This document shows, in pieces, positions 1-64,000 of a DNA stretch of 64,000 nt. Source of the DNA: Leucoraja erinacea. Taxonomy: Eukaryota. Both the position numbers and the translations under genes were made by a program. Numbering within the stretch: position 1 is the first letter of the stretch; each line of letters starts with the position of its first letter. Location of the stretch: NCBI RefSeq assembly GCF_028641065.1, contig NC_073383.1, forward strand, positions 52,390,001 through 52,454,000. The letters are read 5' to 3'. The notes under the pieces were generated by a model. The model was not told the DNA's origin. It made no database searches and worked only from the letters and a program-made list of their open reading frames with translations.

Positions 1-908
1 GGGGTGCAGTGTTAGCTGTGAGGAGGATGCTAGGAGACTGCAAGGTGACTTGGATAGGCTGGGTGAGTGGGTAAATGTTTGGCAGATGCAGTATAATGTG
101 GATAAATGCGAGGTTATCTATTTTGGTGGCAAAAACAGGAAAGCAGACTATTATCTAACTGGTGGCCGACTAGGAAAAGGGGAGATGCAGCGAGACCTGG
201 GTGTCATGGTACACCAGTCATTGAAAGTAGGCATGCAGGTGCAGCAGGCAGTGAAGAAAGCAAATGGTATGTTAGCTTTCATAGCAAAAGGATTTGAGTA
301 TAGGAGCAGGGAGGTTCTACTGCAGTTGTACAGGGTCTTGGTGAGACCACACCTGGAGTATTGCGTACAGTTTTGGTCTCCAAATCTTTGGAAGGACATT
401 ATTGCCATAGAGGGAGTGCAGAGAAGGTTCACCAGACTGATTCATGGGATGTCAGGACTGTCTTATGAAGAAAGACTGGATAGACTTGGTTTATACTCTC
501 TAGAATTTAGGAGATTGAGGGGATCTTATAGAAACTTACAAAATTCTTAAGGGGTTGGACAGGCTAGATGCAGGAAGATTGCTCCCGATGTTGGGGAAGT
601 CCAGGACAAGGGGTCACAGCTTAAGGATAAGGGGGAAATCCTTTAAAACCGAGATGAGAAGATCTTTTTTCACTCAGAGAGTGGTGAATCTCTGGAACTC
701 TCTGCCGTAGAGGGTAGTCGAGGCCAGTTCATTGGCTATATTTAAGAGGGAGTTAGATGTGGCCCTTGTGGCTAAGGGGATCAGAGGGTATGGAGAGAAG
801 GCAGGTACGGGATACTGAGTTGGATGATCAGCCATGATCATATTGAATGGCGGTGCAGGCTCGAAGGGCCGAGTGGCCTACTCCTGCACCTAATTTCTAT
901 GTTTCTAT
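1..908 (+). mobile_element. CR1-clade (HER1-like) LINE, 3' part
   Basis: ORF2 C-terminus motifs [27 protein letters not shown] and [13 protein letters not shown]; 3'UTR ends in a (TTTCTATG)n tail. Confidence 0.93.
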
Positions 909-7600: not shown

Positions 7601-7934
7601 AAGGAAACCCAGGCTTTCCTTCTCTCTCCATTCCTCCCCCTTCCTAGTTCTCTGACCAGTCTAACTGTCCCCCTGATTAAATGTTATCTCTGTGTGCTTC
7701 GTTGTCATCCTCTTCTGGGTAACAATCGTTTTCCTTGAACCTCAACTCCTTTGATGTCTCGTTTTCACTTCCTTTATCTCTGTTGTCTCCCTCTCTTGAC
7801 TCTCAGTCTGAAGAAGAGTCAAGACCCGAAACGGCACTCATTCCTTCTCTCCAGAGCTGCTGCCTGTCCCGCTGAGTTACTCCAGCTTTTTGTGTCTATT
7901 CGGTTTAAACCAGCGTCTGCAGTTCCTTCCTGCA

Positions 7935-17200: not shown

Positions 17201-20200
17201 AGGCACAATGCCCGAGAGTGCTTGGCATGAATGCAAACAGACCAAGCAGTACCAGAAAAAGCAATTTAATATGTTTTAGGAAGATCAGAATTCAGTAAAT
17301 GGAGATAAATTTAGGAACAGTTTCAGAAAGTATCAACATGCAAATGACCAACGCCTGTAAGAGTAAGGGGCCAAAGGATGTGTGCTGCAGGGCTGCAGCA
17401 AGTAACATTACTTTTGAATGTCGAAAGAGTACTTCAGAAAGATAAGTGAATATTTTAGCTTGAAGAATCATAAGTAATTGTAATTTTTTCTGAGTTGTAA
17501 CTAAATCATATTTCTTACTATGCAAAGTTTCTGTGGGCTTAAAATTTTTCTTACACTATTCCTCTGGTGAAACAATTTGTTGAATCACCAAACTTGTTTA
17601 AAATATTCTTATGATACACAAAATTACTGATGTTTCAATATTTAGTAGCACTATAAAAGAGGAAGACTTGCATAAAAGGTATGGTGGACATTTTACTTCT
17701 GAAATATATAGAGCCTTGCACAGAGAGAAAATTGTATCTGTTGAGGCCAATGGGTGAACTGTAGATGAGTAAACAGGTTTTGGAACAAAAATAAAATTCA
17801 GGGTCTGGATTTCATACACATATTCCCTGTTGTACAGGTGCGTAATGTTACCAAACACCAATTGATTTTTTTGTTAATTGGTACATTTTTTCTGAATGTT
17901 GTAAAATTCTTGTAATCAACAGAATGTTTCAGAATATGAAAATTACTTGCTGCTTAAAATGTTTGACATAAGCACTATTCCAGTCAGGAGCTAAACAATT
18001 TAATATAAAATAATAGCATTTGTTTAATGTTGCAAGGCATCCCAAGATATTTCACAAGGATGCCGTGATCCTGATCAGAGAATTTAAGCAGCATTTTAAA
18101 GAGGAAGAGTTAGACAGAGATGGTGGAAATTTTATTTTATTGAAACACTCTTAAATAGGCACAGCACAGAAGGATATAGATTTAATGAGGACCAATGGGT
18201 CTACTGTAGATGAGTAAAAAGGTTAGCATGGAGCAAAAATAAACTTGAAGGAACTCAGTGGGTCTAGCAGCATCTGTGGCGGCAAAGGGGTGATCAACAT
18301 TTCAGGTAGTGACCCTGCATCAGGACTACATAGGCTCGGGTGTGAATGGCTGAAGGGCCATCTGACTAGAGTTGATCTGGACGAATGAGTTGCAAATTAT
18401 AAAATAGTCACTTGCTCGTTTGAAGATTAAATTGTTTTTCGAAAGTTCCCTCTTAAACAATGGTCTTTTAATATTGATTTAGGTGGGTATAACATAGATA
18501 GCTTATAAATTAAAGGCCAATGTATGCACTGCCAATCAGCAGTAAACAGTTAGCGTAGGAGCTGCTTTTCGTAATTTTTCCCAATGAATAGTATTTGTAT
18601 TAATGGCTGTGTTGTCTTTAATCACAAGTTAAATAAATCTTCATAACTAAAACACATGGCATGATGTCATAATCTTCATTGAATTACAAAAAAAAAAAAT
18701 TCTATTTGTTTCACAAAATTGTTGTATTTTTATAAACTAGTTGTTTTCTACTTTATGTGTATTTTTTCATTGGAAAGCTATTCTTTACTGGGTTTATTTT
18801 AGAGATACAGTGCGGAAACAGGCCCTTCGGCCCACCAGGTCCATGCCGACCAGCGATCCCCGCATATTAACACTATCCTACGCACACTAGGGACAATTTT
18901 TACATTTACTAAGCCAATTAACCTACATATCTGTATGTCTTTGTACAGGAAACCAAAGATATCTGTATGGGATGCTCAGTCTAGCTAGCTATCCAAGTAT
19001 GTAGCTCAATCTAGCTAGCTACCAAGTTATCCAGTATGTAGCCATCATCTAAAGATTAGTTAAAGTTCTCGAACAAAACCCACACAGGTCACAAAGAGAA
19101 CGCACAAATTCCATACAGACAGCACCCGTAGTCGGGATCGAACTTGGGTCTCCAGTCCTGCAAGGGCTGTAAGGCAGCATCTCTATGGCTGTGCTACCGT
19201 GCTGGGTTATTGTAAAAAAAGTTGTAGACCGTCTATAATCACCCTGGACATTAAAATCTATAGTTAAATTCAAAATAAGTCACAACATTTTTGTATGTGG
19301 TGGGGGGAGGGGGGGAACACATTACATTTTATTATGTATTTTTCAGATTCCGTTTCAACAGCACAATAATTGTTTTGCAGTTCCCAATAGCTATAAAGTA
19401 CCTTTTGATTTGTTTATTGGACTGTGATTTCATGGCAGATTAGAAATGGTCAACTATTGCTCAGTAACATGTCATTATTACTTTTAAGTGGTTGGTAAAA
19501 CGTGCAATTGAAACCAGAGAAGAGATGGGAGATTATATTCGGGCATTTTCCATATCTCAATTTCAAAAAACCCACAGTCTGCTTGAGGTGAGTTTCTCAT
19601 TCGCATTCACACTGTAAACTTTTAGAGTCATCATTTAAAGTACTGACAACAGACCAATAAAATTCCTAATTGCAGCAGCATGACAGGCCTGTGGATATGG
19701 TAATTAGTTATGATATATTTATCATTATACAGTGTGAGTTCGTAACCCAGTTAGATCGTTTGAAGAAAGGATCTCCATCCAAAATTCAAACACTAAAAGT
19801 TAAAATATTTTCTAATAACTCTGAGGTCAGTCCTGTGGGCTTAATGATTTGCTGAAGATAAAAAAAACAATCGAGATAAGCAAATATATTGTAGAGATAA
19901 GGAACTGCAGATGCTGGTTTACAAAAATAAGCACAAAGTGCTCGACGAACAACTGGTCAGGCAGCATCTCTCGAGAACATGGATAAGTGTGTTAGGTCGG
20001 GACCCTTCTTCAGCTGATTGTGGTAGGTGGAAGAAAGTTGGAAAAGATGTGGGGGCAGGACAAAGTCTGTCAAGTGATACAGGTGAGAGGAGGCGCAGAA
20101 CTCGTTAATTTCATTAACTTTTCCACTAACTTCCACCCTACCCTTAAATTCTCTTGGACTATCTCTGACTTCCCTCTCCCCTTTCTTGATCTCCCTGTCT

Positions 20201-23200
20201 CCATCATGGAGAACACACTATCGATTGATGTCTACTACAAACACACTCTCACACAGTTATCAGTACTGTTACCCGAAACGTTGCCTATCTCCTTCGCTCC
20301 ATATATGCTGCTGCACCCGCTGAGTTTCTCCAACATTTTTGTGTACTATCAGTACTACACCTCCTCCCATCCAGCTTCTTGCAAAGATGCTATCCCTTGC
20401 TTTCATTTTCTTTCTCTCTGCCACGTCTGCTCCCAAGGTAAGGCTTTCCATTCTGGAAATATCAAAGATGTCCTCTTTCTTTAATGTTGTTTCCCCCAGT
20501 TATCATAGATGGATTCCTCCTGTCTTCTGTGTCCTGTAGTTCTGTTCTCACTCCCCCCTACACTCAGACGGATATTTGAATGCCAAATTCTGGATGCAAT
20601 TGTAAAACTCATCCTTGATTACCTTCACACAGCTGTAAAGTCATTCATATTCTCCATTTTTAATCTTTTTTCAATGATGACCATGTTTGCTTTAATGGAA
20701 AATTCATTCATAAAAGACGTGTGTAGTCTTTCATCATGTTGTGTGGTTTCAAATGAGCTGCCTGACAGGAAAAATGCAGTCTATGTAGTCTGCTCCCTTG
20801 GAATTCCGTCTGTACACTGGCATTTGCTCTTTTCTCGAACTGAGCTTTTCTAATATGGCCAATATTTTTGGTGAATGGCTCAACAATGTCATACTCCAGT
20901 ATTTTGATATATTTGTTTGGCTTCCTTTGTTTTTCAAGGCTATGGTTTTTTCCAAATCAAAGGGTGTCATTAATTCTTCTGAGGGTTTTAAATTTCTCTG
21001 TCGCTGTTCTTTTTTTTCTACTCTTTTAGGGTGAAAACTGAATTCTGCATTCCCTGGAATGTAATTATGGTGCTGTAAGATTCAACAGTCTTAGTGAATT
21101 GATCCATCAACTGTATTGTGTCTCAAAATAGGTGCATGTGAATTGCATGTTTTTAGTGGATTTGGTGCAAAATATGTGGTGAATTGTATAATTTATTAAC
21201 ATAGAAACATAGAAAATAGGTGCAGGAGTAGGCCATTCGGCCCTTCGAGCCTGCACCGCCATTCAGTATGATCATGGCTGATCATCCAACTCAGTATCCT
21301 GTACCTGCTTTCTCTCCATATCCCCTGAACCCTTTAGCCACAAGGGCCACACCTAACTCCCTCTTAAATATAGCCAATGAACTGGCCTCAACTACATTCT
21401 GTGGCAGAGAATTCCAGAGATTCGCGACACTGTGTAAAAAATGTTTTTCACATCTCAGTCCTAAAAGATTTCCCCTTTATCCTTAAACTGTGACCCCTTG
21501 TTCTGGACTTCCCCAACATCGGGAACAATCTTCCTGCATCTAGCCTGTCCAACCCCTTAAAAATTTTGTAATTTTCTATAAGATCCCCCCACCCCCCCCT
21601 CAATCTTCTAAATTCTAGCAGGTACAAGCCGAGTCCATCCAGTCTTTCTTCATATGAAAGTCCTGACATCCCAGGAATCAGTCTGGTGAACCTTCTCTGT
21701 ATTCCCTCTATGGCAAGAATGTCCTTCCTCGGATTAGGAGACCAAAACTGTACGCAATACTCCAGGTGTGGTCTGACCAAGACCCTGTACAACTGCAGTA
21801 GAACCTCCCTGCTCCTATACTCAAATCCTTTTGCTATGAAATATATAAATAATAAAATATTGTATTTCCTTTCAATATATTTGTATTAGGATGATGACTT
21901 CAAGCAGCGGAAAGACAAGGCTATGAAAACAGTCGTAGAAGTATCTGTAAGTAGAATATGGAGATCATTGGTTACTCTTCATTTTATTTCAAGCCCTGTT
22001 TGGGAAGAAAAGTACAATGTCATCAGAATCATCACATTTAATATGTTTATCAATTTGACTTCATCTTAAGCATTCTATTTATTTGTATGTGTAAGGATAT
22101 GCACAGAATGTGATCAAACCATGCTTGCATAAAACGTGCAAAAAAAAAGCAATCGTGTGCAACACCTTTTTAAATTGCAGATTCACCATTCTTCTGTGGA
22201 GAAACACATTGTGCCATGGCAGAGTGCAATATTCAGATCATACAGACTCTGATTCAGATTAGTTTATTGTCACATTGACCAGGGTGCAATGAAATTCCTT
22301 GTTCTTATATAGTTTATAGAGTAAACAGTATAGGTTGTAACAATAAATCCATCAATAAATATAACGATGAGTGCAAAACACCAAAATGGTGTAAAGATTG
22401 GAGTGCCTTTGGAAGTAATTCAAAAGCATATACTGTAGTACAATAATAAATTAATCGAAAGAAATAAAGTTAAGAGTAGGAGTACATGGCAGCACCTCTG
22501 GGAAGGGGGTGTGAACAAGTTGATTGATTCAGGTGCCTGATAGCAGTGGGGAAGAACCTGTTCTTGAGCTCTGGTTTTCAAGCTCCTGTATTTATTTTCT
22601 ATCAGAAGGAAAAACTTAGCGGAGTTTCCTCACCTCTCGATGCCTCAGCTCAAGAGCAAACAGTTGCCCTATCAACTACATGCCTTCTTGGCAATAAATG
22701 TCTTTCCCTTTCTTATCCCGACCGACCCCCACCCCCACCCAGTCTGAAGGCTTCAATGGCCGCGTTGACTAATCGCCATCGCAGCCATAGATGCTGCTTG
22801 ACGCTGACTCTGACATCTTTTCTGTGTAACCTGCAGTGGAGAGAAGTCTTTTTTTGGCCTTCCATCACAGCTATGTGATGGATGTTTATGTAAAATTGTA
22901 ATTATGTTGTGTCTGGGTCTATTTGTGTGTAATGTATGGCTGCAGAAACGGCATTTCGTTTGGACCTCTAGGGGTCCAAATGACAATTAAATTGACTCTT
23001 GACTTTACTGAGTACTGTGGACGGCTTGATTGTATCCATGTATAGTCTTTTCTTTGACTGGATAGCATGAAAACAAAACGTTTCCACTGTACCTTGGTAC
23101 ACGTTACAATAATAAACTCCATTAAAGATGCACCTTAACAGGATACTTTCTATAGTGCATCTGTTGAAGTTTGGGGGAATCAGTGGGAGCAGACCAAATG

Positions 23201-26200
23201 TTCACGGTTACCTAAGAAAGTAAATACACTGAAGTACTTAAACAACTATCGCTTTATAACCTGTTCCTGCAGTTGCTTTGTATCCTTCTGTGCAGTTCCA
23301 GTGTTTGTGGGCTTGAGATTCTCATCACCCTAAGAATTAAAAAAAATCTTCTTCCACTACCCTCTGAGCCTTTTGGCCCTTTCCCTAAACCTATGCTCTT
23401 TAGCTTTAGATAATTCTGCTATGGGGGAAAATGTCCTTTTATTCATCCTATATGTTCACATCATAATTTAGTATACATCTTTTGGCTTTTTCTACTGCAT
23501 GGGAAACAAACTCTGTCTATCCAGTCTCTCAACTGAAATGCTCCATCCCAAGTAACATCTTGATGAATCTCTTATGTACACTATGGTGTAATTGCATCCT
23601 TCCTGTCGTGTGGATTTCAAAACTACATAGTACTCCAGCTATGGCCTATCCAGTGTAAAGTTACACCTTTACTTTCCTTGGTCTTGTATTTTATTCCCTT
23701 GAAAGTATCCCATATGCTTTCTTCATTTCTTATCAGTAGAGCCAGGATTTTGCCATAAATGCCATGTGCCTTTTCATGCCTTTTTTGATGATTTCTGGAT
23801 GATAATGCCCTTTTCACGATTGAATGCCTAAATCAGCCTTTTTGTACTATTTTAATGTAACTTACAAGACAATTTATAGCACGGGGGCGAAACCCGGCTG
23901 TAAGTGGGTGTTAAGTGGTGATTGGAAAGGGGTGCTTGGGAAAGGGTCCAGTCTTTGCAGACTGGAGTCATGCTTTAAGTCGGTGTGAAGTGGTGATTGG
24001 GGAGGAGTATGTGGGGAAGGATCTAGTCTTTTCAAATTGGAGTCAAGCTGTGAGTAGGTGTGAAGTGTTGGTTGGGGATGGGATGTGGGGTACCAGGGTT
24101 AAGTTTCTGTTTATCGAACCTGCAGTAGAACTCGTTCAGGTAATTGGTCAGCTGACGATTGCCCAAGGAGCGGGGGAGTTTCCTCTTGTAGCTTGTGATT
24201 TCTTGCAAGCCCTTCCACACTGAAGAAGAATCATTTGCTGATAACTTGCTCCTCAACATCTCAGAGTACCTTTCCTTGGCAGCTCTGATTCCTCTTCTCA
24301 GCTTGTACTTGGCCTGCATGTAGAGATCTGCATCCCCGCTCCTGTAGGATCTACCCTTGCAAGCTTCAACATGCCTAAAGTCAAGTCAACGCCTTGTAAA
24401 AAACTGAACAATTTGGTGAGAGTGTACGGGAGTGATATATTATCTACAGACAACTGTGCAGTTTTGCAAAGCATGTGAGAAAGCAGTGAATCATGAGAAG
24501 AAATATTTCATCTCCCAGCATGTACAGACAACTAAACACAAGTCGACGGCAGAAAAAGGTAGTTGCAATGCACAAGATAACAGCATGAATGTAGAGTTTG
24601 TAGCTTGTTTCAGGAATGCACCCGTGACCTCAGCTGGGGTAGAAATAAGTTTTTCACAACTGAAGTCTATTCTGTCTGACAGACGGCATAGTTTAACACC
24701 AGATAATTTGAAAAAAATGCTAGTATGCAATCAGGCAATATTGTGGTATACCTTTATAATTATCATTTTTACCCATATTTTGGTGGTGGAAATACATGCC
24801 TTTTTATGCCTTTTTTTGTTGTCAATAAATGCCTTTAATGTCTTTTTTGTAATTTTATTTTGCCTTTTTGCCTGCCTATTTCAGAGATTTTTAGCGCCTA
24901 AACATCCTGGCTCTACTTATCAGCATGTACTACCACCTACAGGGATTCTTGGACTTGTACGCCAGGTCCCTTTGTCTTTCAATATGCCCTCAGCCCTGCC
25001 ATTCATTGTGTATATCCTACTTTTACTAGTCCTGCCATTTCACCTGCTATTGGCTTTGCCCATCTTATCAACCGATCAAAGTCGCCTTGTGACCTAGAGG
25101 TCTCTTCCTCTCTCTCTGCAACACTACTGATTTTCATCTCTTCATACTAATCACACCTACTACATTCATGTATATTCATGTTTCAAGGTTTCAATCACGA
25201 ATAAACAACCGACTACCACTGCCTCCTGTTGCCAAGACTATTTTGTATCCAGTTGCACTATTTGCTGTTTTCTCAGTTTTCCAAAATGAAATGGAAGAAT
25301 AGTCTGATCTGATTTTAAGTTCTTTTTTTTCCCCCACTTGGAGACATTAGATAATTTTTATTTGTCCAGCTTTTCTCTTGCCCTCACAGAAGATATAAAG
25401 GCCATTAGATAGAAGATAGACACAAAAAGCTGGAGTAACTCAGCAGGACAGGAGAAGGAATGGGTGATGTTTCAGGTTGAGACCCCTTTTCAGTCTATCT
25501 TTGGTTTAAACCAGCATCTGCAGTTCCTTCTTGCATATAGACACCATTATTTTCCCAAATTGACGAGGCCTTGATTCTACCAAATCTGTGTGTGTGGGGG
25601 GGGGGGGGGGGTTGTCAGTTCCATTTGTCTTTTTATCAGTGTTTTGATTTTAGACTTAAGTCTTGTTATTTCAAGTCATTACAAGTCTATCAGTAACTGA
25701 AAAAGGTATAGGATAAACCTCCTCCTTACTAATAACCTTGGTGTAGCATCGTCCTTTAGGGGCATCTGGAAGCTATTTGGCCATCCCGCAACTATTGGTC
25801 TTAAATTTGAACACAGACTAAGTTAAATAAAAGCTATTGCTCTGTTAAAAGCTGTTGTTAGTGTAGAACCACCAGATGGCCAATAAATAGCATCCACTTT
25901 ATTCTTAAATAACAACTAAAACTCCAGGCACACAAGTAAATAATAGAAAAAGAGCAGGATGATGATGGATAGGATGGTAAAAGCAACACACAAGAATTAG
26001 CAGGAGTAGGCTGCTTGGCTCCTCCAGCCTTCTCTGCCATTCAATAGCATCATGACAGATTTTTTCCTCCAAGCCTCATCTCCTTTTCACTGCCAGTTCC
26101 CCAATTGCCTTTAATTCTCTGACCTTTCATTAAAATGTATGTTCATCTTTTTTAACCCTCCTTCTCCCTCCCAAGAATCTAGCCTTCACAATTCTCGGAG

Positions 26201-32200: not shown

Positions 32201-35200
32201 AACATGGAATGCTGGATATTTCTGGTTCATTCTGCATTTGTGGCATGAAAGCCAAAAGTTATTTTACCTGAATTATTCTGTAGAATTACAAAGTCAGTAA
32301 TAGTGTACATTCAGTACTGAACTCATGAATTCACTCCGAGCGAATGTAAATGAAATAGTGAATGGTAAACAGGCTGAATCTCCTTTATCCAAAGGATTTT
32401 GGCTGTGGTATAGTTTTAATTGTTTGCTTCATGGTGTTAAAATTGTCAGCATGATTAGCTTCATGGAAGAGATATAACCAAAAACTGCATGTAAACCTGG
32501 TTCACAGCTAATGTAAATTAAAAATTATTAACATTAGGTGTTTCTTCGCAAGACTTTTTATAGTAACTTATTAACAGCAGATGTTTAGATATTTTCTTTC
32601 CTTGCCACTGCCTTTCTCTTTTTATTTCCATATTACTGATCTTAATGACTTCCAAATCTTTCAATTACTTACAATTTATTCTTCCTGTTTTATGTTAAAA
32701 CTTTATTTTCTCACTCCTTTTGTTGTTTTCTGACATTCTTCATTTTCATTAGCTTCCCTGATTCCCTCATGTAAGTATTTAGTATTAATTTTCATTTCAA
32801 AGCATGCACTTTTAAACCTCATTGCTAGTTTTCAAATTTAGTATTGATTTCTTAATTATTGGTAATTTAAGTTAGTTGTGAATAAAATTCACAATAGGTA
32901 ATGGGAACATACTCAGTTACCAGCTAGAAGAGTAAACACTGGGAATTGTTTTTATTTTATATGCATAGTAGAATTTAAGGAACTGAAAGGCAATTTTATA
33001 ATTGGAGCCCTAGATGACTAAGAATGTGGTTACTAAGGGTGCAAATGGAGCAATATAAAGCTCATGGAAAGTTAAGTAAATGTAGGCTATTCAACCCTTC
33101 AAATCTGCTCCATTATGACTGACTTTCTACCTGATCAAATTTGAATTTATCCCAGTTTCCCTTGCTCTCAAAAGATATTTGTCTGAATACACTCAATGAT
33201 TGAGCATCCACAGTTTTCTGAGTAAACTGTTCCAAAATTCATTCAATTTTGCTCAATCTATCTGTTAAACAGTTTTCTGTGACCATGTTGTTGAATCTTT
33301 AGCCAAGTGGAATGGCCCACATATAGACTACAGTCTCACGAGAATCCTGTATAATTGAGCTAGATATCTTGTGTGGTTTGCATCAATTCTCCTTCATTGG
33401 ATCAGTTCATTACCCAATGTCCACACTGTAGCACAGCCCACTGGGGCTCATGCAAATTTTGTCACCTGCTACCCCTCCACCCAGCTCTACAATTCATAGT
33501 GTTGTCACAATAAGCTGTTACTTATCTCTACTGAGTCTGAGAACTTTATTCTGCTTATTACAACATCAATTTGGCGAACAAGTTGTTTCAAATGTGGTTA
33601 GATGCAGAATGTGGTGACGGCTAAATTGACACTTGAATATGATGTTAATTATGAAGAGGTGGTACATTAATTCTATGTTACAATTATTGCAGTGTGCTTT
33701 TGATCAGTTGATAAACATGTGTATGCTTGAGTATTAATTGTTTTCTCCTCCACTCTCCCCAAACCTCTCTTTCTGCAGGAAGTACGGTTTCAGCAAGCAA
33801 TCTAAAACTGAAACGGTAAGAATTTAGCATAAATCTAATTTACTCTAGTTTTTATTTCATCTTTGGAGACAAGAGGCTGCAGATGCTGGAATCTTGAGCA
33901 ATGTACAAAGTGGTGGAATAACATAGCAGGCCAGGTAGTATCTTCTGTGGTGGGCAATGGAATAAACCATTTTGGGTCAGGATCCTTCTTTAGGTGGATC
34001 AAGTAGAAGGGTCATGTCCCAAAAGTCATCTACCCATTTACCTCCACCCGTGCTGCTTGACCTGCTGAGTTACTCCACCACCTTTGCTCGTCATAGCATT
34101 GCTCTGTATAAACTGCTAATTTGGATTTATTGGTTAATGTTTTGAGTCTTGGATCAATGAATATACTCATGATAATACAGCCAAAATCAACTCTAATTCC
34201 ATCTACAAGTTTTTAGATGACATCACTTTGGTGTGCTGAATAGCAAACAATGACACGGCAAAGTAAGGAAGGAGAACTTAGTGACATGGTGCCAGGACAA
34301 TAACATCTCCCTCAATGTCAACAAGACGAATGAGCTAGGTATTGACTTCAGGAAGCATGGTGGAGTATATGCCCCAATCCTTATAAATGATGCGGAAGTG
34401 GAAATGGTGGAGAGCTTCAAGTTCCTTGGCTTTAATATTACCAATAATCTGTCGTGGACCAACCACATTGGTGCGAAAGCCAAGAATGCACACCACACCT
34501 ATGTTCCTGAGGAGACTGAGGAAATTTGGCACATCTCCAGTGACTCTTACGTATTTGTACAGATGCACCATAGAAAGGATACTGTCGGGTTGCATCACAG
34601 CTCAGTTTGGGAACTGTTCTTTCCAAGACTGCAAGAAATTGCAGAGAAATTGCAGGGAGTTGAAGATATAGCCCAATCCATTACACAGGCCAAGACTTCC
34701 TAATATTTACTCAATCTACATTTTGCTGGCACGGAAAAGCAGCAGACGTGTCCGATCCTGGTCATTCCTCTTTCTCCCTGCTTCTGTCCAGGAGAAGTTA
34801 GAGAAGCTTGACAGCGCACACCACCAGACTCTGAAACCGCTTCTTCCCCTCTGTTATCAAACTTCTGAACGATCCCTCCGTAAACTAGGGTACTGTTCGA
34901 TTCACCTCTACCCCATTGAGGACATTGGTCTTAATCTAAAGAACTCGCGCTACAATGCTGAGAATTATATTCTGCACTCTGTATCTTCCCCATTGCTGTA
35001 TCTATTATACTTTAGTTTGAACTAATTGTATCTATGTATGGTGTATCTGGCCTGTTTGAATAGCATGCAAAGCAAAGTTTGCACTGTACCCTAGTACATG
35101 TAACAATAATTAACCTAAACCTGAAATTAATAAGTATTACAACTAGAGGTTCTTGAAAATCTGTGTTAATTTATGCTCATTACCATAGAATATTGGGTAC

Positions 35201-43400: not shown

Positions 43401-46400
43401 ACTGACATTAAAATGGAACTATAAACTCTTTGAGAATACTCATGAATAAAGATACAACTAAATAGAGGTCACTTATATTGATATACCCTTTACCACTTTT
43501 TTTATTAGCTGCAAGTTAAATACAGTGAGATCCAGGCTACATGTGAGGAAGAGAAAAAGAAACTGGTGGAGGTATGATTTTATTTTATATGTATGGAAGC
43601 AAAGTATCTGGACATTTGCTAACAACTTGCACATAGAAGACAGAGTGTGTGTGTGTAAATAGCAGATATAGTTTAATCTGAGCAAATGTGAGATGATGCA
43701 CTGTTGAATGTAAAAGAAAAGGACCTTTAACAGCATTGATGTAAGAAAAGGATTTTGAAGTCCAATTCCATAGCTCCCTAAAGGTAACATCACAAGTCGA
43801 TTGAATGCTAAAGAAAGTATATGGCCTGCTTACTTTTATATTCAGTGCCCCGACTGATAAGTGTCAGTCATGTTGCAGCTTTATAAAACTTTGCTTAGGC
43901 CACATTTGGAGTATTGTTTGCATTTCTGGTCGCCCCATCTCCAGCCAATCAATTCACTCTACATGATATCGAAAAGAGACTGAGAGCACTGGATGCAGCA
44001 GACTACAGGACCACCGAGCATCCCGCCTATATTATTGAAGACTGGTGCTACAGAACTAATTACATCTCCAGCCAAGTTATTCCAGTACTATTACAACATT
44101 GGCATCTACTTGTGATAGTCAAGAAAGCAGTTTTCCATTACATTATCAAGGACTACCAGGGATGAGCAATAAATGCTGGCCTTGTTAGTGGCAACCAATC
44201 CTTAAAATGGATATTTAAAAATAAGGTGGTAATAATTTCAGATGAGCTGAAGCCTACTCAACAGGATTAATATGGTGAAGATGTTTAAGTTTACAGAAGT
44301 CATGAAGACTGCCGTTGTGGAGAACATTCGTGGTTAGAGAATGATATCAGTGTGCTGGTGAAATACGCTGCAGGGTCTTGGTAACATTGATGAACAAAGG
44401 GATCTTGAAGTACGTCCAGAGATCCTTGAAGATGGCAGCACAAGGCGATTACATGCATATGGCATATAGGTGTGGGATTGGATACAAAAGCAGAGGAATT
44501 ATGCTCCAAATTTATAAAACTTTGGTTATATCTCAATTGCAGTGTTGCTTGTAGCTTTGGGCACCACACCAGAATCATAATCATACACAGGTAGACACAA
44601 AATGCTGGAGTAACTCAGCGGGAAAGGCAGCCATCTCTGTAGAGAAGGATTGCAGAGATGCTGCCTGTACCGCTGAGTTACTTCAGCATTTTGTATCCAC
44701 CTTCGATTTAAACCAGCATTTGCAGTTCTTTCCTACTCATAGTCATACAGCGTGCTGCAACAGGCCCTTCAACGCAACTCGTAGAGTATCCATCTACGCT
44801 GGTCCCTTTTACCCATGTATGACATATCCTCAACCACTATAGGAAGATGTGATATTGATAGTATGAGTGCAAAAGAGATTCATCAGGATGTTGTCTGGGA
44901 TGGAGTGTTTCAGTTATGAAGAGAGACTGTTGTCCCTGAAGTGGAGGTGATTAAGAGGGGACACAACTGAAGTATACAAAGGGGTATATAGGAGAAGTAT
45001 AGATAGGCTCGACTGTAGGAAACCTTTCCCTACATCAGAGGTAAATCAAGGACATTATTTTTACGATGAGGGAAGAGATTCAGAAGGTATATGAGGGGGT
45101 CCTTTTCCTCCCAAAGAGTGGCGTGTACCTGCAGTGCAATGATCAAGAGAGTGGCTGAAGCAGGTTCACTGGCAGCATTTAACTAGTGTCCAGGCTTAGG
45201 CCCAGAAAGAAATAAGCCAAGAGCCGAAGATGGGATTGGTGCAAGAGTGCACACTGGTTGGTGTGAATATGATGGGCCGCAGGCATGTTTCAGCACTGAG
45301 TGTCTCTGACTGTTTTCCCCTGAAAGGGTCACAGTTTCAAAAGGAGCCAAGCTCTGCAGGACAAATGAGAAAAATCTTTACTAAAAAAGGGAGGTGACTC
45401 TCTACCCAAGAGGGCTGTGAAGTATGTCATTGATTGCATTCAATTGAGAGCAATAGGTTTCCTGATGATGGAGGAACTGGGATATGGAGCTGGGGCAGGA
45501 AAATGGTGGTGAGGTAGATGATTACCTTTGATCTTACTGAATGTCAGAGCAGGCCTAGTTGCTGATTGCTTTCTGCAGTGTTTAGCTTTTGCTTACAATG
45601 TCACCTTTTAATATCCCCATCAAATTTATTTTTCTACGCACTAATTAGATGGCCTCCAGTTTGTAGATTACTTTCATGCCTAGAACATAGTGATTCTGTT
45701 TGGTAAGAAGGGCATAGAAATGTTGACTTTCTGTACTTCCAACTTTCAGAGTATTTTGTTCTTATTATCTTGGTTGATTTTTTATTTTCAGGTTATGAAT
45801 TATGGGCAGAAACTGGATAAGGAACTGGCGAAGCTCGAAGCTGTGGAATCCGAAGCTGATTCCAGGTAAATAGGAATTGGACTATATATTTAATTCAGTC
45901 TTCTGGATTTTGCAAATACTGGAAAGGCAGCATTTGAGACCCTTAAGATATCAACAGATATATTAGTTCTTTAATAAATTACTAAATTGAAAATTTTGTA
46001 TCCTTTGGGATAATTAATTTGTCTGATAAAATTGGAATAATGGAATAAAGTGTCAAAATAAAATGAAGAGATAGAAAAATAACTAGTTGAAAGAGATAAA
46101 AAGCCTTGTCGGTAGCTTTGTGTTATGTTTCTTGCATGTGTCTTCTGCAAATAAAGAGAAGAAGAGGAGAGAAGGGGGAGAAGGAGAAGGGAGGGGGGGG
46201 AGGAGAGGGGGGGGGGAGGAGAGAGGGGAGGGGGGGGGGGGAGGGGGGGGAAGGAGGGGGACGGAGGGGGGGGGGGGAGGGGGGAGAGAGGGGGGGGGGG
46301 GGAGAAGGAGGGGGGGAAAAGGGAGGGAGGGAGGGCGAAAAGGTGGGGGGGGGGGAGGAAGGGGGGGGGGAAAGAGGAGGGGGGGGGGGGGGGAGGAGAG

Positions 46401-59500: not shown

Positions 59501-62500
59501 GATCTGGGCCGACCAATCACGCGGTCAGGGGGGCGGGCCGTCATGGGGTTGGACAAGAAAGGATTTGGTGGTTGGAGTTTAACTCGTGTGTGCTCACGAG
59601 CGACGGCACGGTAATAGTCAAATATTAACTTGATGCACGCATGAGCGACGGGGCTGTATAGGTTAATTATTAAATGGAGTGTTTACGCAACGAGTGGACC
59701 TCTACACCTTGTCAGTTTCTGAAGCTAAGGGGCTGTCGCACTTAGGCAACCTAATTGGCGAGTTTAGGAGAGAAAAATGTCCTCCTTTGTAGAAGACCTC
59801 CTTCGACTGTGTTGAAGACCAGCTACGACTAACTTCGGGAAAAATTGGACACCGAATAGTGGAGAGTGAAGCCAACCTCCTTTGGCCTCCCTTCGACTAT
59901 GAAGAAGACTACCTTCGACTACCTTTGACTACCCTCGACTACCATCGATTACCTATAACTAACATGCCGACCTACTACGATTAAACCTACAAGTAAAAAA
60001 AAGTATTGATTTTTTTTTTTCCATGGCGACCTTTTTTTACTCGCGGACATTTTTCAACATGTTGAAAAATACGCTGCGACCTAGCTGAGGCCTACGGCCC
60101 CTTCTATGGCCTCATGTTGACCATGCTGCGAGTATTAGTCGAGGGCAAACTCACCAGAACTCGCGGATTAGGTCGCCCAAGTGGGACAGCCCCTTAAGTG
60201 CTCTCCCTCTGTGGTCTGGCAGGTGCGTTATTAAAGTCGCAAGGAGGTTACATGTATACACATTTTTAAATTGGTTTTCTTTGGAATTTGCTTAAAATAA
60301 CAAAATTAATAGGGGATTCAATACAATTTTAATAGCTACAATACTGTTAACTTTACAACATTTTATGTTGGACAAGTGGCTCCATGGAATTATGTATTTC
60401 CAATGTAAGGGCACTAAATGACAAGAAACGTCTGAATGTTCAGACACAATTATCCTCACACTTCATATAAGTACAAGAAAAAATATGGGTTTCCTGATCA
60501 TTGTCTTGGTAGGTTTGGCTATAATGTCTTTATTGCATGTTATGGTGTTCATTATCTAATTTTAAGATTGCAAGATTTGGATTGGTTTAAATGTTTCAAA
60601 AGTAATAAATGACACAATGCTAAAGCAATATATGTCAAAAGGACTCAATCGGTTTTCTTACTTCCTAGGTTAACCTGTTGAATTCAATTCATGATAATTT
60701 TCAACAGTGAGTATCATGCAAGTTACATGGAACAGTTACATTTATGCCAGGAGAGGAATACTCAACTGCATTGTTGATGAATACAGTACCCTCCATAATG
60801 TTTGGGGGAAAAACTATCCATCCTTTATTTATTTGCCTCTGTACTCGACAATTTGAGATTTGTAATAGAAAAAATCTCATGTGGTTAAAGTGCACATTGT
60901 CAGATTTTTTTTTAATACATTTTGTTTTCACCATGTAGAAATTACGGCAGTGTTTATACATAGTCTCCCCTCCCATTTTAGGGCACCATAATGTTTGGGA
61001 CAGTAAATGAAAGTAGTCATGCTTAGTATTTTGTTGCATATCCTTTGCATGTAATAACTGCTTGAAGTCTGCGATTCATGGACATCACCAGTGGCTGGGT
61101 ATCTTCTCTGGTGATGCTCTGCCAGGCCTGTATTGCAGTCATCTTTAACTTATGCTTCTTTTGGGGGCTTGTCCCCTTCAGTTTTCTCTTTAGCATATAA
61201 AAGGCATGCTCAATTGGGTTCAGATCGGGTGATTGACTTGGCCACTCAAGAATTTACCATTTTTTGGCTTTGAAAAACTCCTTTGATGCTTTAGCAGTAT
61301 GTTTGGGATCATTGTCTTGCTGTTGAATGAACCGCCGGCCAATGAGTTTTGAGGCATTTGTTTGAACTTGAGCAGATACAATGTGTCTATACACTTCAGA
61401 ATTCATTATGCTACTACCATCAGCAGTTGTATCATCAATGCAGATAAGTGAGCCAGTACCTTCAGCAGCCATTCATGCCCAGGCCGTAACACCCCCACCA
61501 TCGTGTTTCACAGGTGAGGTGATATGCTTTGGATCTTGGGCAGTTCCTTCTCTCCTCCATACTTTGCTCTTGCCATCACTCTGATATGTTAATCTTCATC
61601 TCATCTGTCCACAAGATGTTTTTCCAGAACTGTGGTTGCTCTTTTAACTTCTTGGCAAACTAACCTGGCCATCCTATTTTGGTGGCTAACCAGTGGTTTG
61701 CATCTTGCAGTGTAACCTCTGTATTTCTGTTCATTAAGTCTTCTGTGGTCATTGACAAATCCACACCTGACTCCCGAAGAGTGTTTCTGATCTGTCGGAC
61801 AGGTGTTTGGAGATTTTTCTTTATTATAGCGAGAATTCTTCTAATAGTCTCTAACGGTTTTATTCTTGTTTCTCAGTCTCATAATGGCTTCTTTAACTTT
61901 CATTGGCACTACTTTGGTCCTCATGTTGATAAACAGCAAAAAAAAGTCTCCAAAGATGATGGAAAGACTGGCGCTCTCTTATACCTGCATTAAGGAGGCA
62001 ATGAAACACACCAGAGCAATTACAAACACATGTGAAGCCATGTGTCACAAATAATATGGTGCCCTGAAATGGGAGAATATGTATAAACACTGCTGTAATT
62101 TCTACATGGTGAAACCAAAATGTATAAAAATGGCCTTTAATAAAATCTGGCAATGTGCATTTTAACCACAAGTGATTTTTTTTCTATTACAAATCTCAAA
62201 TTGTCGAGTACATAGGCAAATAAATAAATGATCGGTCTTTGTCCCAAACATTATGGAGGGCACTGTATCTTGCAGTTTTTCCTCATTTATCTTTCTCATT
62301 ATGCATAAGCAAAATACACAAGACCAGTATAATGAAAATTCATAGTGCATAATTGGTGCAGGTGTGCTCACAGTGTCCTTTAATTAGAATCTGTTAATTT
62401 TGAAGCATTAAATTATTAAACTGACAATTAACACAATCTCCCTTAATTTGTGATGTAGATTAGGGTATTTTACATTTTTTCCTCAACAATTATCAACCAT

Positions 62501-62676
62501 CTATTACATTGACTTTCTACAAGTATTTGTAGATATGAGCATTTTAATCATTTGATCATTGTACACATTTTTAATTAAACTTGCATTTCAGGGCAATGGC
62601 ATCCCCAGCTACTCGAGAACAGTTTTTGCGTCAGATGGAACAGATTGTAGAAGGTATTAAGCAGAATCGCATGAAG
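8068..62676 (+). CDS. CCDC93: Coiled-coil domain-containing protein 93 (CCC/Commander subunit); spliced gene with 21 coding exons in the window, 3' end beyond the window
   Basis: Spliced translation [68 protein letters not shown]/.../[28 protein letters not shown] matches vertebrate CCDC93 as recalled. Exons have GT-AG boundaries and compatible phases, apart from the damaged exons 3-4. Confidence 0.97.
8505..8755 (-). mobile_element. Degenerate V-SINE copy
   Basis: Similar to 7355-7600 (aacctacaagc...tgcaaactcc.cagacagcacc). Confidence 0.7.
9255..9485 (+). mobile_element. CR1-type LINE 3' fragment
   Basis: [30 protein letters not shown] followed by a 3'UTR. Confidence 0.8.
10778..10891 (+). 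CDS. CCDC93: CCDC93 exon 2
   Basis: tag|[38 protein letters not shown]|gtgaga; 114 nt. Confidence 0.97.
10967..11258 (+). repeat. 24-bp minisatellite, ~12 units (GTCCATTGTGCTTCTGAACCAGAA)
   Basis: Directly visible tandem array ~75 nt after the exon 2 donor. Confidence 0.95.
11600..12630 (+). mobile_element. Rex1/Babar LINE RT fragment
   Basis: [36 protein letters not shown] and LYFLRRLRR motifs; stops and deletions; CTTGA-repeat tail. Confidence 0.9.
12635..13266 (-). mobile_element. CR1 LINE RT fragment
   Basis: [31 protein letters not shown] and [11 protein letters not shown]. Confidence 0.93.
13420..13700 (-). mobile_element. V-SINE copy
   Basis: Same family as 7355-7600. Confidence 0.8.
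14531..14755 (-). mobile_element. Solo LTR (Gypsy-type)
   Basis: TGTAGTG...CGCTACA termini; flanks GTAC/ATAC (4-bp TSD with 1 mismatch); TATA-like, CCAAT and E-box motifs; AATAAA on the minus strand. Confidence 0.65.
16020..16465 (+). mobile_element. CR1 LINE 3' end
   Basis: [21 protein letters not shown] plus the same 3'UTR and tail as 1-908. Confidence 0.93.
17031..17127 (+). CDS. CCDC93: CCDC93 exon 3 (apparent +2 nt frameshift in a G run)
   Basis: cag|[31 protein letters not shown](I)|gtaagt. It is 97 nt where the peptide needs 95, with the extra bases in GGTGGGGTATG. Confidence 0.9.
17712..17837 (+). CDS. CCDC93: CCDC93 exon 4 (middle garbled)
   Basis: tag|A GCC TTG..GAG AAA ATT GTA TCT GTT (AL.EKIVSV) and ATT CAG GGT CTG GAT TTC ATA CAC ATA TTC CCT GTT GTA CAG|gtgcgt ([14 protein letters not shown]). 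The middle resembles intronic 18185-18245. Confidence 0.8.
18803..19205 (-). mobile_element. V-SINE copy with an internal simple-repeat insertion
   Basis: Head at 19120-19205, tail at 18803-18960; (CTAG)-rich insert at ~18975-19060. Confidence 0.75.
19489..19587 (+). CDS. CCDC93: CCDC93 exon 5
   Basis: aag|[33 protein letters not shown]|gtgagt. Confidence 0.96.
19895..20560. mobile_element. Penelope-like fragments (inverted terminus + RT fragment)
   Basis: [25 protein letters not shown] and [14 protein letters not shown] on +; terminal repeat on - at 19895-20020. Confidence 0.75.
21197..21840 (-). mobile_element. CR1 LINE 3' end
   Basis: Reverse complement of the 1-908 family; [15 protein letters not shown]. 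Confidence 0.93.
21890..21946 (+). CDS. CCDC93: CCDC93 exon 6
   Basis: tag|[19 protein letters not shown]|gtaagt. Confidence 0.94.
23737..24915 (+). mobile_element. Internally deleted hAT DNA transposon with a CGGBP1-like transposase remnant
   Basis: TIR TAGAGCCAGGAT/ATCCTGGCTCTA; perfect 8-bp TSD CTTATCAG (23729-23736, 24916-24923). MPKVK...[26 protein letters not shown] is joined to [26 protein letters not shown]. Confidence 0.88.
23885..24347 (-). mobile_element. Rex1 LINE fragment nested in the hAT element
   Basis: [24 protein letters not shown]...[12 protein letters not shown]...LNEFYCRFD, homologous to the N-terminal part of the 57565-59154 ORF. Confidence 0.8.
26936..27036 (+). CDS. 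CCDC93: CCDC93 exon 7
   Basis: cag|[33 protein letters not shown](R)|gtatgg; 101 nt. Confidence 0.95.
27890..28115 (-). mobile_element. CR1 LINE 3'UTR fragment
   Basis: ggtgcaggagtagg.cattcggcccttc terminus, as in 21197-21840. Confidence 0.85.
28154..29177. mobile_element. Tc1/mariner-pogo (Tigger-like) MITE with a GC-rich foldback interior
   Basis: 22-bp TIR CAGGTGCACAACCTTTTATCCG at both ends; TA on both flanks. Confidence 0.9.
30005..33538 (+). repeat. Tandem duplication of a ~1767-bp intronic segment (30005-31771 / 31772-33538)
   Basis: Both copies start TCATTGAGTATCCTTTT and end CTACTGAGTC; identical ORFs at 30315 and 32082. Confidence 0.97.
33779..33815 (+). CDS. CCDC93: CCDC93 exon 8
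   Basis: Polypyrimidine tract, cag|(R)[12 protein letters not shown]|gtaaga; 37 nt, phase matches. Confidence 0.92.
34215..35125 (+). mobile_element. Degenerate Rex1-type LINE 3' end
   Basis: [22 protein letters not shown] and [14 protein letters not shown]. Confidence 0.8.
35441..35527 (+). CDS. CCDC93: CCDC93 exon 9
   Basis: cag|[29 protein letters not shown]|gtagat. Confidence 0.92.
37680..37730 (+). CDS. CCDC93: CCDC93 exon 10
   Basis: tag|[17 protein letters not shown]|gtatag. Confidence 0.92.
38030..38460 (+). repeat. Degenerate AT-rich tandem repeat (unit roughly 60-80 bp)
   Basis: Recurrent AACAAGCAAGG...GTGTCATTT(C/T)AAGGT.CAATTA motifs, about 5-6 copies. Confidence 0.6.
40449..40535 (+). 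CDS. CCDC93: CCDC93 exon 11
   Basis: cag|[29 protein letters not shown]|gtaaga. Confidence 0.96.
41506..41622 (+). CDS. CCDC93: CCDC93 exon 12
   Basis: cag|[39 protein letters not shown]|gtaaat. Confidence 0.95.
41881..43020 (-). mobile_element. Rex1/Babar LINE, 5'-truncated
   Basis: [24 protein letters not shown] and [11 protein letters not shown]; (CTTGA)n tail at 41881-41895. Confidence 0.93.
43509..43571 (+). CDS. CCDC93: CCDC93 exon 13
   Basis: tag|[21 protein letters not shown]|gtatga; 21 codons. Confidence 0.88.
43590..45560 (+). mobile_element. Cluster of old CR1 fragments and short interspersed repeats
   Basis: Degenerate [12 protein letters not shown] (43880-43930), [11 protein letters not shown] (44890-44930) and CR1-type 3'UTRs; palindromic repeat at 44590-44740. 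Confidence 0.6.
45792..45865 (+). CDS. CCDC93: CCDC93 exon 14
   Basis: cag|[24 protein letters not shown](S)|gtaaat; 74 nt. Confidence 0.93.
46083..46887 (-). mobile_element. Possible non-autonomous Helitron with a G-rich low-complexity core and 3x 27-bp repeat
   Basis: Minus strand starts A|TCTTTATATTACTAAAACTC and ends CTAG|T, with a weak subterminal hairpin (AAAGC...GCTTT); no TSD. Confidence 0.45.
47254..47335 (+). CDS. CCDC93: CCDC93 exon 15
   Basis: tag|(S)[27 protein letters not shown]|gtaaga; 82 nt. Confidence 0.95.
48438..48512 (+). CDS. CCDC93: CCDC93 exon 16
   Basis: cag|[25 protein letters not shown]|gtacat. Confidence 0.93.
49073..49144 (+). CDS. CCDC93: CCDC93 exon 17
   Basis: tag|[24 protein letters not shown]|gtaaga. 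Confidence 0.92.
50435..50543 (+). CDS. CCDC93: CCDC93 exon 18
   Basis: cag|[36 protein letters not shown](V)|gtatgt; 109 nt. Confidence 0.97.
51448..51530 (+). CDS. CCDC93: CCDC93 exon 19
   Basis: cag|(V)[27 protein letters not shown]|gtaagg; 83 nt. Confidence 0.97.
53150..55553 (+). mobile_element. L2-clade LINE nested in the Gypsy RT
   Basis: [50 protein letters not shown] and LKLNSDKTE; (ATT)n tail. Confidence 0.92.
54522..54657. other. Assembly gap (136 N)
   Basis: Run of N inside the L2 RT, directly after YADDT. Confidence 0.99.
56989..59260 (-). mobile_element. Young Rex1/Babar LINE nested in the Gypsy integrase tail
   Basis: 529-aa open RT frame ([40 protein letters not shown]); (CATAT)n tail at 56989-57005. 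Confidence 0.94.
59728..60194. mobile_element. Harbinger-like MITE
   Basis: TIR AGGGGCTGTC(G/C)CACTT ... AAGTGGGACAGCCCCT with TA-rich 3-bp flanks; internal CGACTA repeats; related to 5256-6451. Confidence 0.75.
60669..60706 (+). CDS. CCDC93: CCDC93 exon 20
   Basis: tag|[12 protein letters not shown](Q)|gtgagt; 38 nt. Confidence 0.94.
60784..62265 (-). mobile_element. Tc1 (DD34E) IR/DR-type DNA transposon with decayed transposase
   Basis: ~210-bp TIRs starting CAGT(A/G)CCCTCCATAATGTTTGGG with an inner direct repeat; TA flanks; [11 protein letters not shown] and [13 protein letters not shown] on the minus strand. Confidence 0.94.
62592..62676 (+). CDS. CCDC93: CCDC93 exon 21
   Basis: cag|(Q)[28 protein letters not shown]|gtaaga; 85 nt. 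Confidence 0.97.
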
Positions 62677-63164: not shown

Positions 63165-63570
63165 AAGAACTGCAGGTACTGGTTTACAAAAAATACACAA
63201 AGTGCTGGATTAACTCAGAGGGTCAGGCAGCATCTCTAGAGAACATGGATAGGTGATGTGCTCAAAAAGCTGGAGTATCTCAGCAGGACAGGCAGCATCT
63301 CTGGAGAGAAGGAATGGGTGACGTTTTGGGTCGAGATCCTTCTTCAGACCAGGCCTCTGAAGAAGGGTCTCGACCCAAAACATCACCCATTCCTTTCCCA
63401 AGAGATGCAGCCTGTCCCGCTGAGTTACTCCAGTTTTTTGAGTCTATCTTCGGTTTCTACTTGCACATGGATAGATGATGTTTTGGGTTGGCACCTTGCT
63501 TTCTCCCACCATGAAATGTTATCTATCCATGTTCTCAAGGGATAGTGCCTGACTCGCAGAGTGACTTTAG
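63165..63570. mobile_element. Palindromic Penelope-terminus-derived repeat, nested in an older copy, with hammerhead-like motifs
   Basis: Arms 63263-63348 and 63356-63440 are reverse complements; each has CTGAAGAAGG(G/A)TCTCGACCCAAAAC(G/A)TC. Confidence 0.75.
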
Positions 63571-64000
63571 CATTGTGTGTCTTTTTTTAAATGGAATGTT
63601 TAACCAGTTTTTATGATTTTGGTGGAAGAGCAACAGCTGATATACTAGTTTACATATCTCAGTTTACAGAGCGCCATGTACTATGTTTACATATCAGATG
63701 TGCTGCTGCAAGTAATAATTATATTGCTCCGTTTTGGGACATATGATGATAAAGCACTCTTGAGGAGAATGTTGAATAAAATGTGCCAATAACATTTCTA
63801 CATGGGTAATATGCGGGCTGTACTTTAAATTTATTTATTGTTCATAGTAAATTAGCTATGAAAGATTTGCTTTAATGGACATTTATTTTCTTACTTTTGC
63901 AGCTAACAAATGTACTTTAAATGTAATGTCCTTTTTATAACTAGCTATACATGGCTATAAAAAAAATGTTTTTTGTTGGCCGCCTTCTCTCTGTCTCCCT

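What the first reader, a model, noticed from the sequence alone, without database searches (positions are those of the whole stretch)
63263..63440. Head-to-head pair of minimal hammerhead-ribozyme-like motifs in a palindromic retro-derived unit
Seen: two inverted ~85-bp arms. Each carries CTGAAGA-A-GGGTC-TC-GACCC-(G>A)AAAC-(G/A)TC, on + at 63357-63384 and on - at ~63319-63347. This is the hammerhead layout: CUGANGA, a helix II stem, GAAA, a minimal helix III and an NUC cleavage triplet. Established: Penelope-like elements carry minimal type I hammerheads that are thought to work as dimers. Inference: short palindromic units with one ribozyme per strand and no ORF may be a non-autonomous, retrozyme-like family mobilised by Penelope RT in elasmobranchs. 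Both copies here have GAAA>AAAA (CpG decay) and are probably inactive.
Basis: partly seen in the sequence, partly recalled or inferred. Interest (0 to 1): 0.7.

Follow-up and report, generated by a model that had tools for sequence, protein, structure and literature searches.

The report
Head-to-head stub of a Penelope retroelement
This 205-base mirror-image insert in an intron is a decayed scrap of a very abundant Penelope-type jumping gene, likely built at its landing site from two short copies of the element's hammerhead-bearing front end; the shape is already known and it is probably not a separate ribozyme element.

Summary
The palindrome is real (z -16) and carries a decayed minimal-hammerhead motif on each strand. 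It is a 205-bp insertion (63260-63464) inside a 17-bp target duplication, in a CCDC93 intron. Its arm is the pseudo-LTR of a Neptune/Nematis-type Penelope-like element (RT, CX4CxxC, GIY-YIG), with 43,932 exact core-motif hits in this genome. Palindromes are a minority (29 of 86 copies; 5 with both cores whole), vary at the junction, carry the ~35-nt tail on one arm and grade up to 3.2 kb. The commonest junction recurs across subfamilies, its centre base unlinked to the tail side, so it is not one master element. 5' ends pile up at -3/-2 before the core, not at the cleavage site. Helix I is 2 bp and the hairpin is predicted to lock the core; opposite-strand copies cannot form a cis dimer. The architecture is published (PMC3846280, PMC8557442) and the scan noted it many times, also in this genome. 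What remains useful is a testable model of how inverted ends form.

The parts
63243..63259 (+). Left copy of 17-bp target-site duplication (part of the older host element)
   Evidence: two matches in the window, 0 in 100 shuffles
63261..63349 (-). Inverted arm: pLTR positions -2 to about +88 (C of CUGA = +1), no tail; hammerhead-like motif 63320-63347 with G12>A and a broken helix II pair
63350..63355 (.). 6-nt junction filler, not matching the element's upstream sequence
   Evidence: centres differ among copies
63356..63456 (+). Direct arm: pLTR positions -1 to about +100; hammerhead-like motif 63357-63384 with G12>A and ACGU>ACAU; predicted cleavage after 63384 in an intact copy
63457..63464 (+). 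Remnant of the tail (possibly with an internal deletion) or filler
   Evidence: alignment to L245/L231 tails; inferred
63465..63481 (+). Right copy of the target-site duplication
63165..63259 (-). Left arm (with tail) of an older palindromic insertion of a related subfamily, interrupted by the finding
   Evidence: (I3, D1)
63482..63587 (+). Rest of the older host insertion (centre and right arm)
   Evidence: (I3, D3, I11)
62592..62676 (+). Nearest upstream exon of the host gene CCDC93; the finding lies in the following intron
   Evidence: Pfam CCDC93_CC E 7.4e-08; PDB 8f2u_N E 2.3e-10

Best explanation
The unit is a short, decayed insertion of a Neptune/Nematis-type Penelope-like retrotransposon, made of two copies of the element's hammerhead-bearing pseudo-LTR joined head to head inside a 17-bp target duplication, and likely assembled anew at this site. 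Shown: the arm is the element's pLTR (it follows the RT-GIY-YIG ORF and, in a tandem copy, runs on into the body); the architecture TSD - inverted arm - direct arm - tail on one side - TSD; clustering of 5' ends at -3/-2. Inferred mechanism: the element's RNA would start at an initiator-like TCAGTC three bases before the hammerhead core; the protein would nick both target strands about 13-17 bp apart and prime one cDNA from each nick at one of two internal starts (about +95 and +130) on the uncleaved leader; both cDNAs would run off at the RNA 5' end or stop earlier and be joined by microhomology (AGACT with itself gives the commonest junction) or with a short filler as here. The hammerhead-like core is inherited cargo; in the host pre-mRNA it is predicted to be locked in the hairpin and both copies have lost G12.
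For: Arm lies ~105-190 nt after the stop of an RT-CX4CxxC-GIY-YIG ORF (Pfam RVT_1 E 1e-05 and GIY-YIG E 0.0035, both below gathering cut-off) and continues into the body in tandem copy L257. Same layout at 3.2 kb with 14-bp TSD in L231. Core-independent sample: 29 of 86 palindromic, 5 with both cores whole; 42 of 86 5' ends in -14..+4, 0 in -29..-15. Sister subfamily: 37 of 88 in -6..+4, 1 of 88 at +27..31; base-exact mode -2 (11) and -3 (7) of 90. Tail on exactly one arm in 47 of 53 palindromes (one place counted twice), Fisher p 2e-08; TSD of 11 nt or more in 25 of 53 versus 0 of 400 shuffled flank pairs. One-base-centre palindromes: tail right 10 / left 8 / neither 12 of 30 (older) and 15 / 11 / 4 of 30 (young), none with both, several subfamilies. 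Arms of one unit share non-CpG variants 36 times versus 12.3 +/- 3.1 when shuffled (68 units). PAc in vitro nicks and extends both strands, has two internal RT starts bounding the tail, and uses uncleaved RNA (PMC11167929).
Against: One junction is strongly over-represented: 277 exact places in the older and 543 in the young subfamily, 38 of the first 50 short-spacer double-core places; this is also what a successful palindromic master would give. Shared arm variants fit gene conversion or fold-back as well as two cDNAs from one RNA. The transcription start is inferred from DNA ends only; RNA reads show no start pile-up and almost no reads on the element body. L253, a near-full copy, begins exactly at the cleavage site, so cleaved RNA may sometimes be used. 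Samples are the first exact matches on contig C1, not random draws; blastn ends are uncertain by a few bases.
Confidence: 0.8

Rival explanations
1. A non-autonomous palindromic, retrozyme-like family with one ribozyme per strand, copied as a unit by the Penelope enzyme.
For: Whole palindromes sit in single TSDs; one junction recurs hundreds of times; pLTR-derived non-autonomous retrozymes exist in vertebrates (10.64898/2026.07.22.740005).
Against: Both-core palindromes are 5 of 86 copies and 0 of the first 100 exact core hits have an exact head-to-head partner; junctions vary, centre base unlinked to tail; retrozymes are head-to-tail tandems with canonical helices; ribozyme fold costs about 51 kcal/mol in the unit, helix II pair probability about 1e-18; no stranded small RNA or defined ends in reads.
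Confidence: 0.06
2. Same parent element, but the inverted arm arises by self-priming/fold-back (on an antisense template, as proposed in PMC3846280, or by the first cDNA folding back at TCAG-T-CTGA or helix II).
For: Junctions cluster at self-complementary spots: the TCAG/CTGA centre and helix II, inner ends 10-13 in 7 of 24; arms share variants; published proposal.
Against: Simple fold-back predicts a second arm ending at the same outer point or at the target, whereas arms use the two different outer ends (one tail) in 47 of 53; inverted arms ending at -2/-3 are also joined to unrelated internal parts of long copies (L272, L275), and many junctions have fillers or unequal arms (L357: -4 against -110).
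Confidence: 0.2
3. The 5'-end cluster marks a 3' splice site or branch point, not a transcription start: RT would stall on, or copy from, a splicing intermediate.
For: Upstream of the core all subfamilies seen have a pyrimidine tract ending in YAG|T, several with a CTRAC-like word; in D. virilis Penelope an intron ends at helix I (PMC4209133).
Against: The CTRAC word is only 4-8 nt from the AG; ends peak at -2/-3 and keep the AG or G; no spliced joints in reads.
Confidence: 0.12
4. A miniature DNA transposon (MITE) or miRNA hairpin.
For: Long inverted repeat; weak Rfam miRNA-hairpin scores.
Against: All Rfam hits far below gathering; asymmetric ends, 13-17 bp TSDs and continuity with an RT ORF.
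Confidence: 0.01

Closest known systems
EN+ Penelope-like insertions with inverted 5'-truncated pLTR, one-sided 30-40 bp tail and TSD (Pen2a_Av, PMC3846280, passages; general scheme PMC8557442, passages)
   Same: Direct pLTR plus adjacent inverted pLTR, tail on one end, 8-10 bp (here 13-17 bp) TSD, palindromes at the inverted junction, heavy 5' truncation.
   Different: Here the unit is reduced to the two pLTR leaders (~200 bp), occurs in very high number, and ends cluster at -3/-2 before the hammerhead core.
PAc (Poseidon, Anolis) in vitro system (PMC11167929, parts 1-2 of 4 read)
   Same: Hammerhead then two RT starts about 100-130 nt downstream bounding the tail; uncleaved RNA as template; no reads ending at the cleavage site.
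   Different: This element has the CX4CxxC linker (Neptune/Nematis type) and its long frame starts about 35 nt after the tail rather than in stem II.
Minimal type I hammerheads of metazoan PLEs (PMC4209133, parts 1-2 of 4 read)
   Same: CUGANGA, extra base between 9 and 10.1, G10.1-C11.1, GAAA, self-complementary 15.2-16.2, UH.
   Different: Helix II is 4 bp (paper: 7-8 typical), helix I 2 contiguous bp (paper: 4-5; 2 in D. virilis); the two motifs here are on opposite strands, so no cis dimer.
Non-LTR retrozymes (PMC7229834, passages; 10.64898/2026.07.22.740005, parts 1-3 of 5)
   Same: pLTR-related, no ORF, type I hammerhead, would depend on PLE enzyme.
   Different: Retrozymes are head-to-tail tandems giving circular RNAs; this unit is head-to-head, tail- and TSD-bounded, with variable junctions.

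Membership tests
EN+ Penelope-like element (Neptune/Nematis type) | RT followed by C-terminal GIY-YIG endonuclease in the parent element | tested here: met
   733-755 aa open frames; Pfam RVT_1 and GIY-YIG, below gathering cut-offs; arm follows the stop at 77-91% identity to the reference arm
EN+ Penelope-like element (Neptune/Nematis type) | CX2-5CxxC linker motif and CCHH motif | tested here: met
   CX4CxxC upstream of the GIY-YIG motif and CxxC inside it in L231/L232/L240; definition from PMC8557442
EN+ Penelope-like element (Neptune/Nematis type) | Placement in Neptune versus Nematis by RT phylogeny | not tested
EN+ Penelope-like element (Neptune/Nematis type) | pLTR from partial tandem, inverted truncated copy, one-sided tail, TSD | tested here: met
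   L257 tandem; L231; 47 of 53 one-sided tails, TSDs; 24 of 30 young units with TSD of 11 nt or more
Minimal type I hammerhead (family consensus form) | CUGANGA, bulged base, G10.1-C11.1, GAAA, palindromic 15.2-16.2, UH | tested here: met
   5,316 exact intact 37-mers; 205 descriptor hits versus 5 in reversed controls, the sample being enriched by selection
Minimal type I hammerhead (family consensus form) | Helix I of 4-5 bp | tested here: not met
   2 contiguous bp in 121 of 205 hits, 4 or more in 3; predicted pair probability about 0 in a single intact arm
Minimal type I hammerhead (this copy) | Intact catalytic core | tested here: not met
   G12>A in both arms, further changes in each
Minimal type I hammerhead | Self-cleavage as dimer or with protein help | not testable with these tools
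   No read ends at the site, but fragmented poly(A) reads are a weak test; no Rfam hammerhead hit even for intact copies
Non-LTR retrozyme | Head-to-tail tandem units each with a hammerhead | tested here: not met
   Unit is head-to-head
Non-LTR retrozyme | Fixed unit propagated from master copies | tested here: not met
   Variable junctions and arm lengths; centre base unlinked to tail side
Non-LTR retrozyme | Abundant circular or discrete small RNA | tested here: inconclusive
   Reads equal on both strands, no end pile-up; library is poly(A), circles would be under-represented

The most novel reading that the evidence does not exclude
The tens of thousands of stubs record how Penelope-like elements make their inverted ends: both nicked target strands prime on the same uncleaved RNA leader at two fixed starts, run off at an initiator three bases before the hammerhead core, and anneal through a self-complementary AGACT end, which would replace the published antisense self-priming idea and imply that the ribozyme sits at the very cap of the mRNA with only a 2-bp helix I available.
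Probability: 0.45. Interest if true: 0.5.

Novelty: new member of a known kind. Interest (0 to 1): 0.22.

Why it matters
As a locus it is ordinary: a dead repeat in a CCDC93 intron, at most a double-stranded stretch in the pre-mRNA. As a class, such stubs give base-exact junction statistics on an acknowledged open point, how Penelope-like elements form tandem/inverted ends and tails (stated as open in PMC8557442), and they turn it into a direct in vitro test. The scan has already reached this reading many times, so this copy adds little beyond one more test (centre base versus tail side).

Tried and rejected
Rfam scans of the window end and of two intact copies found no hammerhead family. Pfam on three short ORF pieces of L116 gave nothing; PDB sequence search with the L231 ORF gave nothing. 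Cleaved RNA as main template rejected: no peak at +29 (9 of 86 in +23..35, same density as +5..22; 1 of 88 in +27..31). An extra cap-derived G was seen before 4 of 7 ends at -3: too few to use. A conserved reading frame across the arm was not found. RNA lay on the element body gave almost no reads, so no transcription start or intron could be mapped; the run's organism may not be this species (most reads 90-95% alike or less). Paper searches: 'Penelope+skate+palindrom+cartilaginous' 0 papers; 'Penelope+twin priming+inverted+retrotransposon' 2 unrelated listings; 'Penelope+Chondrichthyes+hammerhead ribozyme' 3 listings. Repbase/Dfam and paper supplements were not seen and may already hold this family. 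Rows dropped before counts: L147, L148, L169, L188; L299, L303; L140, L149, L194. In one search the 21 palindromic rows include one unit twice (L297/L298) and a likely spurious row (L363).

Full report
Observation. The window holds an inverted repeat centred near 63352 that folds at -156.1 kcal/mol, z -16.4. A hammerhead-like motif lies on + at 63357-63384 and on - at 63320-63347, each two changes from the intact form; shuffles give none. The minus copy has GGATC in helix II, the plus copy ACAT for ACGT, and both have AAAAC. The insert runs 63260-63464 between two copies of a 17-bp sequence that belongs to the left arm of an older, related palindromic insertion. It lies in an intron after a CCDC93 exon at 62592-62676. 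Positions below count the C of CUGA as +1.

What the arm is. The genome G000 has 43,932 exact matches to a 20-base core motif, 5,316 to an intact 37-mer, 6,053 to a downstream 43-mer and 49,427 to a 35-mer of a younger sister subfamily; reversed controls were 0. In long copies the arm follows, by about 105-190 bases, the stop codon of a frame with RT motifs, a CX4CxxC linker and a GIY-YIG domain; frames reach 733-755 aa and score to Pfam RVT_1 and GIY-YIG below the gathering cut-offs. By the definition in PMC8557442 (passages) this is Neptune/Nematis type; I did not build a tree. The longest frames belong to the sister subfamily (arm 77% alike); copies of the finding's own subfamily (87-91% alike) follow broken frames in L243, L245, L247, L248, L249. 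In tandem copy L257 the arm runs on past +130 into the body, and a long frame starts about 35 bases later. So the arm is both the element's end and its leader: the pseudo-LTR.

Are palindromes a family? In 86 copies chosen by a motif outside the core (90 fetched, 4 duplicates or tandem rows dropped), 29 have an inverted partner and 5 have both cores whole; inner ends range from -9 to +72. In 90 core-selected copies, 24 are palindromic, 7 with both cores. Over both sets the ~35-base tail is on exactly one arm in 47 of 53 (one place counted twice), and a duplication of 11 or more bases flanks 25 of 53, against 0 of 400 shuffled flank pairs. The same build occurs at 3.2 kb in L231 with a 14-bp duplication and at intermediate sizes. 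Against my reading, one junction is frequent: 390 places have both cores with a spacer up to 6 bases, and 38 of the first 50 have a single centre base (277 and 543 exact places in the two subfamilies). I tested whether this is a master: with the centre base fixed, the tail is right/left/neither in 10/8/12 of 30 older and 15/11/4 of 30 young units, never on both, the units span several subfamilies and the tail-less arm varies in length. One master cannot give that; two cDNAs ending in AGACT annealed to each other with a central mismatch would (inference). Arms of one unit share non-CpG variants 36 times against 12.3 +/- 3.1 (68 units), so both arms come from one source lineage, or were converted later.

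Where copies begin. 42 of 86 5' ends fall in -14..+4 and none in -29..-15. In the young subfamily 37 of 88 fall in -6..+4 and 1 at +27..31; base-exact walking gives a mode at -2 (11) and -3 (7) of 90, often with clean duplications. Long copies read TCAGTCT at -5..+2 in 24 of 26 young and 11 of 28 older cases, matching the initiator consensus YYANWYY (recalled) with A at -3. RNA reads and contigs from other samples show the same boundary as loose ends at -5 to -2. The finding's own arms end at -2 and -1. I infer run-off at the RNA 5' end of an uncleaved leader. A 3' splice site at the same YAG is the rival (PMC4209133 reports an intron ending at helix I in D. virilis). One near-full copy, L253, starts exactly at +29.

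The ribozyme. Intact copies have every core feature listed for PLE minimal hammerheads in PMC4209133 (parts 1-2 of 4 read), but helix II is 4 bp and helix I 2 contiguous bp in 121 of 205 descriptor hits. Rfam finds no hammerhead even in intact copies. In the unit, forcing the ribozyme fold costs about 51 kcal/mol and helix II pairs have probability about 1e-18; in a lone intact arm about 0.002. A transcript through the unit carries one sense and one antisense motif, so the published dimer fold is unavailable in cis. Poly(A) reads cover the arm equally on both strands with no place where many molecules begin or end; this is a weak test. PAc's hammerhead cleaves only with protein and is not needed for insertion (PMC11167929, parts 1-2 of 4), so an active role in the parent element stays possible and untested.

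Mechanism. Shown: identity with the pLTR, architecture, end clustering, decay. Inferred: nicks on both strands 13-17 bp apart, one cDNA from each using the starts at about +95 and +130, run-off or earlier stop, joining by microhomology or filler. This follows PAc's behaviour (both strands cut and extended, two internal starts bounding the tail). The published alternative is self-priming on an antisense template (PMC3846280, passages); unequal outer ends and short inverted arms joined to unrelated inner parts of long copies fit it less well but do not exclude it.

Comparison and verdict. Inverted truncated pLTR, one-sided tail and TSD are described for Pen2a_Av and as the general scheme; D. virilis Penelope has an internal promoter in the pLTR (PMC2377424, passages). 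Retrozymes are head-to-tail tandems (PMC7229834, passages; 10.64898/2026.07.22.740005, parts 1-3 of 5), which this is not. Supplements and repeat databases were not seen and may name this family. Earlier scan notes report the same kind of stub in other genomes and in this one; they gave me the lead to PMC3846280 and to the run-off idea, which I tested on my own samples. All samples are the first exact matches on contig C1 and favour less diverged copies. Verdict: real, explained, a new member of a known kind; interest 0.22.

Noticed in passing
window 63165-63259 and 63465-63587: Older palindromic insertion of a related subfamily; the finding inserted into its left arm, so the element landed in a relative's pLTR.
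   Followed up: partly
window 7803-7935, 25405-25530, 44589-44739, 19883-20017, 20271-20350, 33880-34077, 6770-6800, 8234-8318, 18246-18323: Further copies of the same pLTR family: one solo arm with upstream sequence, two palindromes joined inside the arm (no whole core), and older subfamilies.
   Followed up: partly
window 60781-62268: About 1.5-kb element with long (~200 bp) inverted terminal repeats (I1/I2/I4/I6/I7); looks like a decayed Tc1/mariner-type DNA transposon (label recalled, not tested).
   Followed up: no
window 59729-60196: About 470-bp stretch with short terminal inverted repeats seen by eye; may be a Harbinger-like miniature element (label recalled).
   Followed up: no
L253 (reverse strand, position 412): Near-full young copy whose 5' end lies exactly at the predicted hammerhead cleavage site; single case.
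   Followed up: partly
L231, L245, L247, L249 just upstream of the core: Subfamilies with otherwise different 3' UTRs all end in a pyrimidine tract and YAGTCT, which fits both an initiator and a 3' splice site; the ACGT of the hammerhead falls about +27..30 from the putative start, where a downstream promoter element would lie.
   Followed up: partly
L252-L275: The young sister subfamily has many 94-98% identical long copies with an N-terminal region and a proline-rich stretch before RT; 49,427 exact arm hits suggest recent, large-scale activity.
   Followed up: partly
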